In this document: one piece after another, positions 52,639 to 54,527 of the stretch | Layout of the letters: each line of letters begins with the position of its first letter | Numbering within the stretch: position 1 is the first letter of the stretch | Assembly: GCA_023898465.1 (NCBI GenBank) | Contig: CP060223.1 | Coordinates: 544,001-608,000, forward strand | Source of the DNA: Candidatus Nomurabacteria bacterium | GTDB taxonomy: Bacteria > Patescibacteriota > Patescibacteriia > HK-STAS-PATE-3 | Direction of reading: 5' to 3' | DNA length: 64,000 nucleotides | Program-made: the position numbers and the translations under genes | The notes under the pieces: model-generated | Told to the model about the DNA's origin: nothing | The model's database searches: none | What the model saw: the letters and a program-made list of their open reading frames with translations, nothing else

Positions 52639-52670
52639 TTGACATTCGGTTTTTCTTCGGTATATCATAG
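52639..52670 (+). promoter_or_regulatory. lexA promoter TTGACA-N17-ATATCA with the direct repeat ATTCGG-N5-CTTCGG in the spacer (candidate SOS box). The mRNA is leaderless or nearly so.
   Basis: TTGACA at 52639-52644. Box at 52644-52660. ATG at 52675 lies about 7 nt after the -10. Confidence 0.55.
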
Positions 52671-52674
52671 TCAC

Positions 52675-53301
52675 ATGACCGTTGTACTACCAAAGAAGAA
52701 ACAAGAGCTCCTGAAATACCTTCAGGAATATATTACTGAACATAGCTACGCCCCTACCCTGACCGAGATAGCGAAAAAGTTTGGCGTGTCCTCACTTGCT
52801 ACGATTCACGAGCATCTCGCCTTTTTAGAGGAGAACGGCTTTATCCGTCGTGATAAGCAACAAGCCCGTGGAATTACCCTGCTCAATCCAGAGGATAACG
52901 CTACGCAAAGTGAAAGCGCCTTGAATACAATAGAATTACCAATCGTTGGGGTTATCACCGCAGGTGCACCAATTGAGGCTATTGAGGATCGCGACCGCAC
53001 GCTTTCCGTCCCCCAGGAAATCGCTGGCCGTAAAAACGCCTATGTATTAAAGGTGCGCGGCGATTCTATGATTGAAAGTCTCATTGCTGACGGTGATTTC
53101 GTTGTTGTAGAAAAAACTGAATACGCAAAAGATGGTGACACTGTTGTAGCAATGCTAGAGGACGGCACCGCTACCTTAAAGAAATTCTTTAAGCATAAGA
53201 GCTATATTCGCCTACAACCAGCTAACAAGGCATATGCACCAATTAAAGTACCATCCGTAGTTATTCAAGGACGCGTACTTGGTGTCATGCGCAAAATGTA
53301 A
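52675..53301 (+). CDS. lexA: LexA repressor (S24 peptidase family).
   Basis: N-terminal winged HTH (PTLTEIAKKFGVSSLATIHEHLAFLEENGFI), AG cleavage site VITAGAPIEAI, Ser-Lys dyad GDSM...ATLKKF. Confidence 0.85.
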   Translation: MTVVLPKKKQELLKYLQEYITEHSYAPTLTEIAKKFGVSSLATIHEHLAFLEENGFIRRDKQQARGITLLNPEDNATQSESALNTIELPIVGVITAGAPIEAIEDRDRTLSVPQEIAGRKNAYVLKVRGDSMIESLIADGDFVVVEKTEYAKDGDTVVAMLEDGTATLKKFFKHKSYIRLQPANKAYAPIKVPSVVIQGRVLGVMRKM

Positions 53302-53319
53302 TTTTTATTTATCTTTTAT

Positions 53320-53336
53320 CTTCGGTTTTTCTTCGG
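53320..53336 (+). promoter_or_regulatory. Second copy of the direct-repeat box CTTCGG-TTTTT-CTTCGG, 3 nt upstream of the ImuB-like gene.
   Basis: 16/16 identity of the TTCGGTTTTTCTTCGG core with the lexA-promoter copy. Confidence 0.5.
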
Positions 53337-53339
53337 CCT

Positions 53340-54527
53340 ATGAAACCCTCCCCTCTTATCAAGCGTTATATCCACGTCCGTTTAAATAGTTTTCTCGCTA
53401 GTATTGTTGAGAGAGAAAACCCCAAACTACAGGGTCGGCCTATTGTAATAAGCGAAATGCATAATAATGAAGAACGCGTGCTGAGTTGTAATATCCCAGC
53501 AAAAAAGCTAGGCATCCAAAAGGGCGATACAATTTTACAGGCAAAGAAGCGCTGTACTTGGGTGGCGGTATTTCCTAGTGACATTGAATTAGCAAAAACC
53601 TATGCGAAAGAGTTTATTGCCCTACTCTGTCGATTTTCCACTAAGGTCTATCCGCATAATCGTTTAGACGAAGCCTACATTGAGCTAGACGTCAGTGGAA
53701 TTGCTGCAAGCTCTCCAGAGGAGTTTGCGGCAACTATCCAGCGAAGCATTAAGGTACAACTTGGTTTAAATGCTAGCATTGGAATTGCACGCACTCGTTC
53801 GGTTGCCTGGAGCGCTGCACTGCATAAGCAGCCCGAAGGGATTACCAGTGTGCCTATTGGTAGTGAGCGCGCTTTTCTTTACCCTCTTCCACTTACTCAG
53901 CTCTACTCGCTGGGACAGCGCTCACGCGAATACCTCCTCTCGCATGGTATTCGGACTATTGGCCAACTAGCTGCTTGCTCCAGTAATTGGTTAGTGGAAC
54001 AGTTTGGCAGTGCAGGATATGAGCTACTTCAGTTAGGTCATGGCCAGGATATAAAAGAAGTGAAAACGCCAACTTTACAGAAGTCTATTTCGCGCTCACT
54101 TCGCTTCGAGGCTCCAACAAGTAATCCTGCATTAATTGAAACTACAGTAGCTCACTTAAGTGAAAAGGCTCTTCGTACGCTCCAAAAGCAGGGTCGACGT
54201 GCTGAGACCGTGGTGCTGCAAGTGACCGACATTTACGGTCGCTCACACCAAAGTCATGCAAAACTTTCTAGCTCACGAAACTCATTCCAAAAAGGACTTT
54301 ACAGTGTTTTTCGTCATCTTACCGCTCAGGTGAGCGCTATTCGTTCTATTGCCGTGCAGCTGCACACGTTGCTAGAAACACCGCAGGAGCAACCAAATCG
54401 TGTATGGCAAAGTCAGCCGGTACAATCAGCTATTTTAGGTCTAGAGTGGAGATCGGGTCAGCGGGCCAGAAAAGCAGCAAGATCAGGCAGCTTGGTGCAG
54501 TTACCACTACTCGGTATGAGCGCTTAG
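53340..54527 (+). CDS. Y-family DNA polymerase homolog lacking the N-terminal catalytic aspartates (ImuB-like, predicted catalytically inactive).
   Basis: IHVRLNSFLASIVEREN aligns to DinB IHVDMDAFFASVE (D to R and D to N). RLDEAYIELDVSG retains DE. Fingers, palm, thumb and little-finger length are appropriate. Confidence 0.65.
   Translation: MKPSPLIKRYIHVRLNSFLASIVERENPKLQGRPIVISEMHNNEERVLSCNIPAKKLGIQKGDTILQAKKRCTWVAVFPSDIELAKTYAKEFIALLCRFSTKVYPHNRLDEAYIELDVSGIAASSPEEFAATIQRSIKVQLGLNASIGIARTRSVAWSAALHKQPEGITSVPIGSERAFLYPLPLTQLYSLGQRSREYLLSHGIRTIGQLAACSSNWLVEQFGSAGYELLQLGHGQDIKEVKTPTLQKSISRSLRFEAPTSNPALIETTVAHLSEKALRTLQKQGRRAETVVLQVTDIYGRSHQSHAKLSSSRNSFQKGLYSVFRHLTAQVSAIRSIAVQLHTLLETPQEQPNRVWQSQPVQSAILGLEWRSGQRARKAARSGSLVQLPLLGMSA

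What the first reader, a model, noticed from the sequence alone, without database searches (positions are those of the whole stretch)
52639..54527. Direct-repeat SOS box shared by a leaderless lexA and an ImuB-like dead polymerase
The 16-mer TTCGGTTTTTCTTCGG, a direct repeat [A/C]TTCGG-N5-CTTCGG with an 11-bp period, occurs in the lexA promoter spacer (52644-52660). It occurs again 3 nt upstream of the next gene (53320-53336). That gene is a Y-family polymerase homolog whose first catalytic motif has lost both aspartates (VRLNSF versus VDMDAF), the hallmark of ImuB. A direct-repeat LexA box is reminiscent of the GTTC-N7-GTTC box of alphaproteobacteria rather than the palindromes of most phyla. 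lexA itself appears leaderless (ATG about 7 nt after the -10). No imuA or dnaE2 follows, so the mutasome partner is missing or located elsewhere.
Basis: partly seen in the sequence, partly recalled or inferred. Interest (0 to 1): 0.65.

Follow-up and report, generated by a model that had tools for sequence, protein, structure and literature searches.

The report
SOS operator, lexA and disabled polymerase
A 16-base direct repeat is very probably the LexA (DNA-damage repressor) binding site of this tiny uncultured Patescibacteria bacterium. It controls lexA, a DinB-like polymerase that has lost a catalytic residue, and a second operon 52 kb away encoding a small ImuB-C-like protein and an intact polymerase.

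Summary
TTCGGTTTTTCTTCGG occurs exactly three times in the window, not two:
- inside the lexA promoter spacer (52645-52660)
- 3 nt before the next gene (53321-53336)
- inside a second promoter at the window start (146-161, minus strand)

The source is a Candidatus Nomurabacteria MAG (Patescibacteria/CPR).

The box is conserved at both orthologous positions in relatives. With a -35 attached it marks 76 metagenome promoters, where about one is expected by chance. In low-GC CPR DNA these mostly drive lexA or a small-protein/Y-polymerase operon. In Gemmatimonadota they drive imuA/imuB/dnaE2 and a radical-SAM gene. It is almost certainly the LexA operator. A direct-repeat LexA motif in Patescibacteria is already published.

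The polymerase is not an ImuB. It is a DinB-derived paralog with R14 in place of DinB D8, and it keeps the Asp-Glu pair. All 12 lexA-adjacent Y-polymerases examined across CPR lack that Asp, some lack all three acidic residues, and some are truncated. They are nevertheless under purifying selection.

The "missing partner" is probably the third-box operon: a standalone ImuB-C-like (DUF6504) protein plus a catalytically intact Y-polymerase. I read this as a new variant of the ImuB-type mutasome theme, of moderate interest.

The parts
52639..52644 (+). -35 hexamer TTGACA of the lexA promoter
   Evidence: The promoter scan finds TTGACA-18-TATCAT with 11 of 12 matches. The same TTGACA-box--10 layout occurs in relatives.
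52645..52660 (+). SOS box 1 (TTCGGTTTTTCTTCGG), the putative LexA operator filling the promoter spacer
   Evidence: Exact match. It is conserved as TTCGGTTTTCCTT[T/C]GG in L003, L004 and L005. It lies in 76 metagenome promoters.
52663..52668 (+). -10 hexamer TATCAT. It ends 6 nt before the lexA ATG, which implies a leaderless or nearly leaderless mRNA.
   Evidence: The distance from box to ATG is 13-16 nt in eight other CPR lexA promoters. The transcription start has not been mapped.
52675..53301 (+). lexA (208 aa): winged-HTH DNA-binding domain plus S24 self-cleaving peptidase domain
   Evidence: TIGR00498 180.8 bits (cutoff 110.95); PF01726 and PF00717. The Ala-Gly cleavage site (ITAGAP), the GDSM serine and the TLKK lysine can be read in the translation.
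53321..53336 (+). SOS box 2, an intercistronic operator 3 nt upstream of the polymerase ATG
   Evidence: Exact match. A TTYGG-N6-TTYGG box sits between lexA and the polymerase in all 12 lexA-polymerase loci, the window included. There is no promoter or terminator between the two genes and no RNA structure.
53340..54527 (+). DinB-derived Y-family polymerase homolog (395 aa) with Arg in place of the first catalytic Asp, called iPolY here. It has a C-terminal QLPLL clamp-binding-like motif.
   Evidence: PF00817 and PF11799. It scores below the DinB equivalog cutoff (162.6 against 256). R14 aligns with DinB D8 and D110/E111 are retained. The AF2 model has pLDDT 90.5 and a full Y-family fold. dN/dS in relatives is 0.08-0.18.
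146..161 (-). SOS box 3, in the spacer of a second promoter (-35 TTGACT at 162-167, -10 TATACT at 139-144)
   Evidence: Exact match. The same promoter drives the same gene family in L078 and in 13 metagenome loci.
1..111 (-). First 37 codons of an 86-aa ImuB-C-like (DUF6504-related) gene that runs off the window start. In the same genome it is followed by a catalytically intact 424-aa Y-family polymerase.
   Evidence: L001 and L002 extend the contig beyond the window start. 23 of 40 family members hit PF20114. PF20114 also matches the C-terminus of a canonical ImuB. The small gene and the active polymerase are adjacent in 8 loci.

Best explanation
The 16-mer TTCGG-N6-TTCGG is the operator of this Patescibacterium's LexA repressor. 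A LexA dimer bound to it covers the spacer between the -35 and -10 hexamers and blocks RNA polymerase. DNA damage (RecA on single-stranded DNA) triggers LexA self-cleavage and releases the promoters. This mechanism is inferred from family knowledge.

The window shows two SOS units.

Unit 1 runs: promoter with box, then lexA (probably leaderless), then a second box, then iPolY.
- iPolY is a DinB-derived Y-family protein whose first metal-binding Asp is replaced by Arg.
- It is therefore most likely unable to polymerise.
- It is folded, conserved and probably clamp-binding.
- The intercistronic box most likely acts as a second operator or roadblock, keeping iPolY more tightly off than lexA (inferred).

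Unit 2 lies 52 kb away: promoter with box, then a standalone ImuB-C-like protein, then (after an insertion in this genome) a catalytically intact Y-family polymerase.

My working model, which is inferred and not shown:
- Together these proteins form a CPR version of an ImuB-type mutasome.
- ImuB's two halves, the dead Y-family body and the ImuB-C domain, are separate proteins.
- A Y-family enzyme, not DnaE2, does the lesion bypass.
For: Operator:
- Three exact intergenic copies, two of them in TTGAC(A/T)-17/18-TAnnnT spacers.
- Conserved at both orthologous positions in relatives whose polymerase is only about 40% identical.
- The -35+box pattern finds 76 metagenome loci against about 1 expected (my estimate), and almost all are followed by a -10-like hexamer.
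- Genes driven in low-GC contigs: lexA 16 (+3 behind a membrane-protein gene) and ImuB-C-like 13, of which 8 have the active polymerase within 1.3 kb.
- recA in a Shapirobacteria genome and lexA in Kerfeldbacteria.
- In Gemmatimonadota the same 16-mer precedes imuA-like, imuB, dnaE2 and a radical-SAM+HhH gene.
- LexA itself is canonical.

iPolY:
- R14 lies opposite DinB D8 in alignments to solved structures.
- All 12 lexA-adjacent polymerases lack this Asp (R, C, S, T, A or L). Four also lack the Asp-Glu pair.
- L083 has a 206-aa truncated version. L059, L119 and L131 have thumb-only versions of 94-102 aa.
- dN/dS is 0.08-0.18.
- Among the 149 nearest cluster representatives, those lacking D8 are concentrated at the top of the ranking.
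- The AF2 model has pLDDT 90.5 and the QLPLL motif lies in a disordered tail.

Partner:
- The sm86 (ImuB-C-like) gene and the polymerase are adjacent in L188, L162, L132, L161, L199, L144, L145 and L165. Where both motifs are within the fetched DNA (7 polymerases, including this genome's L001), H-x-DMNSYFASVEQQANP and SIDEAF are invariant.
- The family hits DUF6504, and so does the C-terminus of a canonical ImuB in an imuA-imuB-dnaE2 cassette.
- Standalone ImuB-C with an active or inactive PolY, often with lexA, is described in PMC6511836.
Against: - No binding or expression data exist for this organism.
- The published Patescibacteria LexA consensus could not be read here, so its identity with this box is unverified.
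- iPolY keeps D110/E111 and a complete fold, so residual or altered catalysis is not excluded.
- The link from sm86 to ImuB-C is weak. The best DUF6504 E-value is 1e-5, and the window genome's own copy has no hit. hhalign probability is 3%. No solved structure resembles the model.
- No evidence shows that iPolY, the ImuB-C-like protein and the active polymerase interact.
- In this genome the ImuB-C-like gene and the active polymerase are separated by an opposite-strand ORF, so co-transcription is uncertain.
- Only 64 kb plus about 6 kb of a 1.08-Mb genome was seen, so imuA, dnaE2 or further boxes may exist elsewhere.
Confidence: 0.72

Rival explanations
1. iPolY is not a mutasome scaffold. It is an SOS-induced clamp- or DNA-binding brake or sensor: a non-catalytic protein that competes for the beta clamp or the primer end to slow replication or gate access of the active polymerase. 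It would act independently of the ImuB-C-like protein.
For: A conserved clamp-motif-like C-terminus. Progressive loss of catalytic residues, and even of the palm domain, while the thumb HhH is kept. iPolY is always linked to lexA and never to the ImuB-C-like gene. It is under purifying selection.
Against: There is no direct evidence either way. The co-occurrence of a dead PolY, an ImuB-C-like protein and an active PolY under one operator mirrors known ImuB-type modules (PMC6511836).
Confidence: 0.3
2. The 395-aa protein is still an active polymerase. D110, E111 and neighbouring residues suffice, or Arg14 substitutes for one metal ion, so it is simply an unusual DinB.
For: The Asp-Glu pair and a full four-domain fold are retained. 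Sequence similarity to DinB is good (E = 1e-44).
Against: The residue equivalent to DinB D8 ligates the catalytic metals in Y-family enzymes (established knowledge of DinB/Dpo4). Relatives in the same gene position lose the Asp-Glu pair as well, or lose the whole palm, so catalysis is evidently dispensable for whatever is selected.
Confidence: 0.1
3. The repeat is not a LexA site. It binds another factor, or is a promoter-spacer element of a class of CPR and Gemmatimonadota promoters.
For: No binding data. The T-rich spacer of the box is as conserved as the TTCGG arms. No Gemmatimonadota lexA was found next to a box in the DNA fetched.
Against: It sits in lexA's own promoter in at least 20 loci. 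Its target genes are classic SOS genes: recA, Y-polymerases, imuA/imuB/dnaE2 and a radical-SAM repair gene. It also occurs outside promoters, between lexA and iPolY, which argues against a spacer element.
Confidence: 0.06
4. The polymerase gene is a decaying relic (pseudogene in progress) with no function.
For: Catalytic residues are lost stepwise, and truncated versions exist in some lineages.
Against: Intact ORFs of 368-401 aa occur in 11 loci. dN/dS is 0.08-0.18, including in the clade that lost all three acidic residues. The model is confident and complete. The upstream operator is conserved.
Confidence: 0.05
5. The protein is a true member of the ImuB family.
For: It lacks the first catalytic Asp, is SOS-regulated, and has a QLPLL motif reminiscent of the ImuB clamp motif.
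Against: It is 23% identical (48 bits) to canonical ImuB against 32% (182 bits) to DinB. Asp-Glu is retained where ImuB has none. It has no DUF6504/ImuB-C domain. There is no imuA or dnaE2 in the window.
Confidence: 0.03

Closest known systems
LexA regulon of the Patescibacteria (Sanchez-Osuna, Barbe & Erill, Environ Microbiol 2017; PMID 28618189)
   Same: The same superphylum and a canonical LexA. That paper is cited as a case of LexA recognising a direct-repeat motif (PMC7739468). From memory, unverified: it describes a small regulon centred on translesion synthesis.
   Different: The paper is not in the library, so I could not check that its consensus equals TTCGG-N6-TTCGG. I also could not check whether it noted the lost catalytic Asp, the intercistronic box or the ImuB-C-like gene.
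Alphaproteobacterial LexA box GTTC-N7-GTTC
   Same: A direct repeat with an 11-bp period, read by an otherwise canonical LexA (PMC8565304).
   Different: The half-site sequence differs (TTCGG against GTTC). Here the T-rich spacer is also nearly invariant. No evidence of common descent was examined.
ImuA-ImuB-DnaE2 mutasome
   Same: An SOS-controlled module containing a catalytically disabled Y-family protein, an ImuB-C (DUF6504) domain and a separate catalytic polymerase.
   Different: No ImuA or DnaE2 was seen. The dead Y-family body and the ImuB-C-like domain are separate proteins in separate operons. The dead protein derives from DinB and keeps Asp-Glu. The candidate catalytic partner is a Y-family enzyme.
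Standalone ImuB-C plus active PolY operons, e.g. Geobacter lexA-imuB-C-polY (Timinskas & Venclovas 2019, PMC6511836)
   Same: A small beta-rich ImuB-C-like protein encoded immediately upstream of an active Y-family polymerase under LexA control.
   Different: In CPR, lexA is paired with a second, inactive PolY, while the ImuB-C-like/PolY pair has its own box promoter. The CPR small protein is only weakly similar to DUF6504.
E. coli DinB (Pol IV) and Dpo4
   Same: The best sequence and fold matches, with all four domains.
   Different: D8 is replaced by Arg. The score falls below the NCBIfam DinB equivalog cutoff.
Other inactive PolY groups (scDinB2-like, Kyrpidia-type iPolY; PMC6511836, PMC12926913)
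   Same: Inactive Y-family homologs that stay close to the PolY core rather than to ImuB.
   Different: Those are coupled to DnaE2. The text of neither survey mentions the Patescibacteria or Parcubacteria.

Membership tests
LexA repressor (TIGR00498) | Full-length match above the curated cutoff, with an N-terminal LexA DNA-binding domain and a C-terminal S24 peptidase domain | tested here: met
   180.8 bits against a cutoff of 110.95; PF01726 2.5e-15; PF00717 1.6e-30.
LexA repressor (TIGR00498) | Ala-Gly cleavage site and Ser/Lys catalytic dyad | tested here: met
   Read from the translation: VITAG|APIEA, RGDSM, ATLKKF. This was checked by eye against the E. coli pattern recalled from memory.
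LexA operator (SOS box) | Lies in lexA's own promoter (autoregulation) | tested here: met
   Window 52645-52660 between the -35 and -10. The same holds in L003, L004, L005, L059, L119 and 16 metagenome loci.
LexA operator (SOS box) | Recurs upstream of other DNA-damage genes far more often than chance allows | tested here: met
   Three exact copies in the window. 76 metagenome promoters against about 1 expected. Targets are Y-polymerase operons, recA, imuA/imuB/dnaE2 and a radical-SAM gene.
LexA operator (SOS box) | Conserved at orthologous positions in relatives | tested here: met
   Both positions are conserved in L003, L004, L005 and L128. The intercistronic box is present in 12 of 12 lexA-polymerase loci, the window included.
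LexA operator (SOS box) | Specific binding by the cognate LexA | not testable with these tools
   Needs an EMSA or footprinting.
ImuB | Y-family homolog lacking all three catalytic acidic residues | tested here: not met
   D8 is replaced by R14, but D110/E111 are retained. Canonical ImuB from L060 and L061 has none of the three.
ImuB | C-terminal ImuB-C domain (DUF6504) | tested here: not met
   Pfam finds only IMS, IMS_C and a weak IMS_HHH. The protein ends about 45 residues after the little finger. A canonical ImuB (L203) does hit PF20114 at residues 430-494.
ImuB | Closer in sequence to ImuB than to DinB/PolY-core | tested here: not met
   48 bits and 23% identity to ImuB, against 182 bits and 32% to DinB.
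ImuB | Encoded in a cassette with imuA and dnaE2 | tested here: not met
   No homolog of either lies in the 64-kb window. The rest of the genome was not seen.
DinB / DNA polymerase IV (NF002677 equivalog) | Score above the curated cutoff and an intact catalytic triad | tested here: not met
   162.6 bits against a cutoff of 256. The first Asp is missing.
Y-family polymerase fold (PF00817 + PF11799) | Palm/fingers, thumb and little-finger domains | tested here: met
   PF00817 9.7e-30; PF11799 3.6e-9. The AF2 model has pLDDT 90.5 and matches DinB/Dpo4 in Foldseek at E 1e-28 to 1e-30.
Standalone ImuB-C (DUF6504) protein - gene at window 1-111 and onward | Sequence match to DUF6504, the ImuB C-terminal domain | tested here: inconclusive
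   23 of 40 family members hit PF20114 (best E 9.8e-6), but the window genome's own copy (P0121, 98% identical) has no hit. hhalign against a canonical ImuB aligns the shared P-x-AF-x-W...Y-x-V motif at ImuB 428-445 with only 3% probability.
Standalone ImuB-C (DUF6504) protein - gene at window 1-111 and onward | Small all-beta protein encoded next to a Y-family polymerase under LexA control | tested here: met
   The AF2 model has pLDDT 90 and seven strands. The gene is adjacent to an active PolY in 8 loci and lies behind a box promoter in 13.
Leaderless mRNA (lexA) | Transcription start at or within a few nt of the start codon, with no Shine-Dalgarno sequence | tested here: inconclusive
   The -10 ends 6 nt before the ATG. 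The geometry recurs in eight CPR lexA promoters. The transcription start cannot be mapped here.

The most novel reading that the evidence does not exclude
CPR bacteria use a previously undescribed three-protein, LexA-controlled translesion machine. An inactive DinB-derived protein encoded with lexA supplies the clamp-binding ImuB 'body'. A separate 80-100-aa ImuB-C-like protein supplies the adaptor. A dedicated, strictly conserved Y-family polymerase replaces DnaE2 as the catalytic subunit. This would be a living intermediate, or a convergent copy, of the route by which ImuB arose. In addition, the same LexA operator is shared with Gemmatimonadota, which implies transfer of the lexA gene and its regulon logic between very distant phyla.
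Probability: 0.25. Interest if true: 0.65.

Novelty: new variant of a known kind. Interest (0 to 1): 0.5.

Why it matters
CPR/Patescibacteria are a large, uncultured and genome-reduced part of bacterial diversity, and their DNA-damage biology is almost untested.
- These roughly 1-Mb genomes keep two SOS operons devoted to Y-family proteins, one of which has a polymerase that cannot polymerise but is under selection. This suggests that non-catalytic Y-family scaffolds are a general solution and not a peculiarity of ImuB.
- The split arrangement gives a natural test of the proposal (PMC6511836) that ImuB arose by fusion of a Y-family polymerase with a standalone ImuB-C protein.
- An operator that is identical base for base in Patescibacteria and Gemmatimonadota is a useful handle for tracing LexA evolution and for predicting SOS regulons directly in metagenomes.

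Tried and rejected
- Reading the 2017 Patescibacteria SOS paper: not held. Four further literature searches gave no description of its consensus. A search for 'LexA' plus 'TTCGG' returned only noise. No paper mentions DUF6504.
- Whole-genome scan of the source genome: not possible. By my estimate about 280 chance hits are expected there, so most are noise inside genes, and the source genome was not among them.
- Weaker boxes in the window: TTCGG-N6-TTCGG with 1 mismatch gave 8 hits against 3.9 expected. The five extra hits are not promoter-like, and the one inspected (24942) is coding.
- RNA explanations: no Rfam family or tRNA in the window. The intercistronic box region has no RNA structure (z = +0.8).
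- hhalign of the sm86 (ImuB-C-like) profile against Gemmatimonadota ImuB: no match.
- The idea that the GC-rich, ORF-poor patches next to the SOS promoters are copies of one mobile element: rejected, because they share no similarity.
- Viral contigs carrying the -35+box pattern: none.
- A Gemmatimonadota lexA for comparison: none in the fetched loci.
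Full report
**What is there**

The stretch 52639-54527 holds two co-oriented genes.
- ORF 52675-53301 is a canonical LexA: TIGR00498 scores 180.8 bits against a cutoff of 110.95, with a LexA DNA-binding domain and an S24 peptidase domain.
- ORF 53340-54527 is a 395-aa Y-family polymerase homolog with the IMS and IMS_C domains. 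Its best NCBIfam match is DinB, but at 162.6 bits it falls below the 256-bit cutoff.

An identical protein is on record as a hypothetical protein of a "Candidatus Nomurabacteria bacterium" MAG, on a 1,082,586-bp contig. The window therefore comes from a Patescibacteria (CPR) genome.

**The repeat**

- 52645-52660: it fills the spacer between TTGACA and TATCAT. The promoter scan scores this promoter 11 of 12.
- 53321-53336: it lies 3 nt before the polymerase ATG.
- 146-161 on the minus strand: a third exact copy, again between a -35 (TTGACT) and a -10 (TATACT). It lies 34 nt upstream of an ATG at position 111 whose gene runs off the window start.

Three exact intergenic copies of a 16-mer in 64 kb cannot be chance. 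About 3e-5 is expected per extra copy, and shuffles give 0.9 matches even with three mismatches allowed.

**Conservation**

The polymerase has only five close relatives in the 5.8-billion-protein index, at 40-42% identity. Their contigs show the same synteny: lexA, the polymerase, a tsaB-like gene, an HTH gene, a 750-aa gene, then rplL. The box is at both orthologous places:
- TTGACA-TTCGGTTTTCCTT[T/C]GG-TTAnnnT upstream of lexA
- TT[C/T]GGTTTTT[A/C]TT[T/C]GG, 3-6 nt before the polymerase ATG

**Regulon by proxy**

I could not scan the source genome. The exact 16-mer in one genome per GTDB species gave mostly chance hits, but promoter-like contexts recurred:
- lexA in Kerfeldbacteria
- recA in a Shapirobacteria genome
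- a Bro-N gene
- in Gemmatimonadota, imuA-like and imuB genes and a radical-SAM gene

The more specific pattern TTGACN-TTCGGTTTTYCTTYGG found 76 metagenome contigs, where about one is expected. Almost all carry a -10-like hexamer at the right distance.

| Contig class | Downstream gene or operon | Loci |
|---|---|---|
| Low-GC | lexA first | 16 |
| Low-GC | lexA behind a small membrane-protein gene | 3 |
| Low-GC | an 80-107-aa protein, here called sm86 | 13 (8 followed within 1.3 kb by a Y-family polymerase) |
| Low-GC | methyltransferase, Bro-N, HTH, LAGLIDADG, DUF5678 | a few |
| High-GC | radical-SAM + HhH protein | 15 |
| High-GC | ImuA-like, ImuB or DnaE2 | 4 |

This is the target spectrum of an SOS operator. 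A direct-repeat LexA motif in Patescibacteria is already in the literature: PMC7739468 cites Sanchez-Osuna et al. 2017 for it. I could not read that paper, so I cannot confirm that its consensus equals this box.

**Leaderless lexA**

The -10 ends 6 nt before the ATG. In eight other CPR lexA promoters the ATG lies 13-16 nt after the box, and in others 29-34 nt. A leaderless transcript is therefore plausible and recurrent, but it has not been mapped.

**The intercistronic box**

There is no promoter-like or terminator-like site between the lexA stop and the polymerase ATG, and the region has no RNA structure. All 12 lexA-polymerase loci examined, the window included, have a TTYGG-N6-TTYGG box in this short spacer. 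In those loci the motif otherwise occurs almost only at the lexA promoter. I infer a second operator inside the operon that holds the polymerase off more tightly than lexA. This is not shown.

**The polymerase is not ImuB, but it is disabled**

Alignment to solved E. coli DinB puts R14 opposite D8, N16 opposite D10, and D110/E111 opposite D103/E104. Only D8 and the Asp-Glu pair are metal ligands (established knowledge of DinB/Dpo4). Asn at the second position also occurs in the intact paralogs.

Canonical ImuB sequences recovered from Gemmatimonadota begin ALCVWWPGFELELER and have no Asp-Glu. They are only 23% identical (48 bits) to the window protein, whereas a Chloroflexi DinB is 32% identical (182 bits). 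The window protein also has no ImuB-C domain, and the window holds no imuA or dnaE2. It therefore fails four defining features of ImuB.

- In all 12 lexA-adjacent polymerases the D8 position is R, C, S, T, A or L.
- One clade (L181, L174, L193, L177) has also lost the Asp-Glu pair.
- L083 carries a 206-aa truncated version. L059, L119 and L131 carry 94-102-aa proteins that match only the Y-family thumb.
- These are not pseudogenes. dN/dS is 0.08-0.18 where dS is unsaturated, including in the clade with no catalytic residues.
- The AF2 model is complete and confident: pLDDT 90.5, with Foldseek E about 1e-28 to 1e-30 against DinB and Dpo4.
- The disordered C-terminal tail carries QLPLL. Comparable hydrophobic motifs close the other family members.
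- A profile search of 1.84 billion cluster representatives shows that the immediate clade is small, with five representatives. Among the 149 best hits aligned, 14 have R, K, C or S at the D8 position, ten of them within the 21 best-scoring hits.

**The partner**

Two Logan contigs extend past the window start. Behind box 3 they carry, in order:
- the 86-aa sm86 gene
- a 61-aa zinc-ribbon ORF
- a 172/185-aa ORF on the opposite strand
- a 424-aa Y-family polymerase with HFDMNSYF and SIDEAF intact

In L078 and in eight metagenome loci the small gene and this polymerase type go together, usually adjacent. Where both motifs are within the fetched DNA (seven polymerases, including this genome's L001 copy), H-x-DMNSYFASVEQQANP and SIDEAF are invariant.

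The small protein family has 156 members, all annotated as hypothetical, and the few organism names on record are Kerfeldbacteria or Patescibacteria.
- 23 of 40 members weakly hit Pfam DUF6504.
- DUF6504 in turn matches residues 430-494 of a canonical ImuB in an imuA-imuB-dnaE2 cassette. That is the region called ImuB-C in PMC6511836.
- hhalign aligns the shared motif but with low probability.
- The AF2 model is a confident seven-stranded beta protein with no solved relative.

PMC6511836 describes standalone ImuB-C proteins encoded with active or inactive Y-family polymerases, often with lexA, including the damage-induced Geobacter lexA-imuB-C-polY operon.

**Interpretation**

- Shown: a conserved operator-like box at three sites, a canonical lexA, a conserved D8-less DinB paralog next to lexA, and a second box operon with an ImuB-C-like gene and an intact Y-polymerase.
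- Inferred with good support: LexA binds the box, and the D8-less protein cannot polymerise.
- Inferred with modest support: the three proteins act together as a split, DnaE2-free ImuB-type mutasome. The main rival is that the dead polymerase acts alone as a clamp-binding brake or sensor.

**Novelty**

The operator and the idea of an SOS regulon in Patescibacteria are known in kind. The consistent loss of the catalytic Asp in the lexA-linked polymerase, its reduction series, and its pairing with an ImuB-C-like/active-PolY operon are not mentioned in the two Y-family surveys I could search. I rate this a new variant of a known kind, of moderate interest.

Noticed in passing
L043, L060, L061, L064, L065, L086, L092, L106 (Gemmatimonadota genomes); L135, L138, L147, L163, L196 and other high-GC metagenome contigs: The identical 16-mer sits between the -35 and -10 of promoters in Gemmatimonadota. 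It lies upstream of imuA-like, imuB, dnaE2 and a radical-SAM+HhH gene. Two very distant phyla therefore appear to share one SOS operator. No Gemmatimonadota lexA was in the fetched DNA. One Zixibacteria contig (L104) has the same promoter layout.
   Followed up: partly
L114 about 2533-2548 (minus strand), Saccharibacteria: The exact 16-mer lies inside a lexA coding sequence, where it encodes FGFSS in the HTH region. This could be coincidence or an intragenic operator.
   Followed up: no
window 51281-52640 and window 164-680: GC-rich (0.55-0.63), ORF-poor patches lie immediately upstream of both SOS promoters. The first is a 1.36-kb gap between a uvrD/pcrA-like helicase and lexA. They have no Rfam match and no similarity to each other or to comparable patches in relatives.
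   Followed up: partly
L001 12582-13368 (just beyond the window start); L078 960-2560: In this genome the ImuB-C-like gene and the active polymerase are split by a 61-aa zinc-ribbon ORF and a 172/185-aa opposite-strand ORF with no Pfam match. L078 has a different insertion at the same place. In eight other loci the two genes are adjacent.
   Followed up: partly
L140, L143, L178 (also L131): In some CPR contigs the box promoter drives a small membrane protein of about 112 aa placed upstream of lexA. It is a candidate SOS cell-division inhibitor. It has no Pfam match.
   Followed up: no
L136, L185, L169, L013, L180, L183, L201, L159: Other genes behind box promoters in low-GC contigs: two C5 DNA methyltransferases, Bro-N/DinD-like proteins, HTH and LAGLIDADG-like proteins, and a DUF5678 protein. 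These suggest mobile or defence elements wired to the SOS signal.
   Followed up: partly
L020, L023, L068 (Woeseiaceae-like gammaproteobacteria): The 16-mer sits in a shared non-promoter context, AAAnT-TTCGGTTTTTCTTCGG-...-TTCTATTTCAG (the last part only partly conserved in L068). Its meaning is unknown.
   Followed up: no
L083 (labelled uncultured Gammaproteobacteria MAG): The contig has CPR-type synteny and a LexA 63% identical to the window's. It is probably a mis-binned Patescibacteria contig. Its lexA promoter carries two inverted boxes, as does L119.
   Followed up: partly
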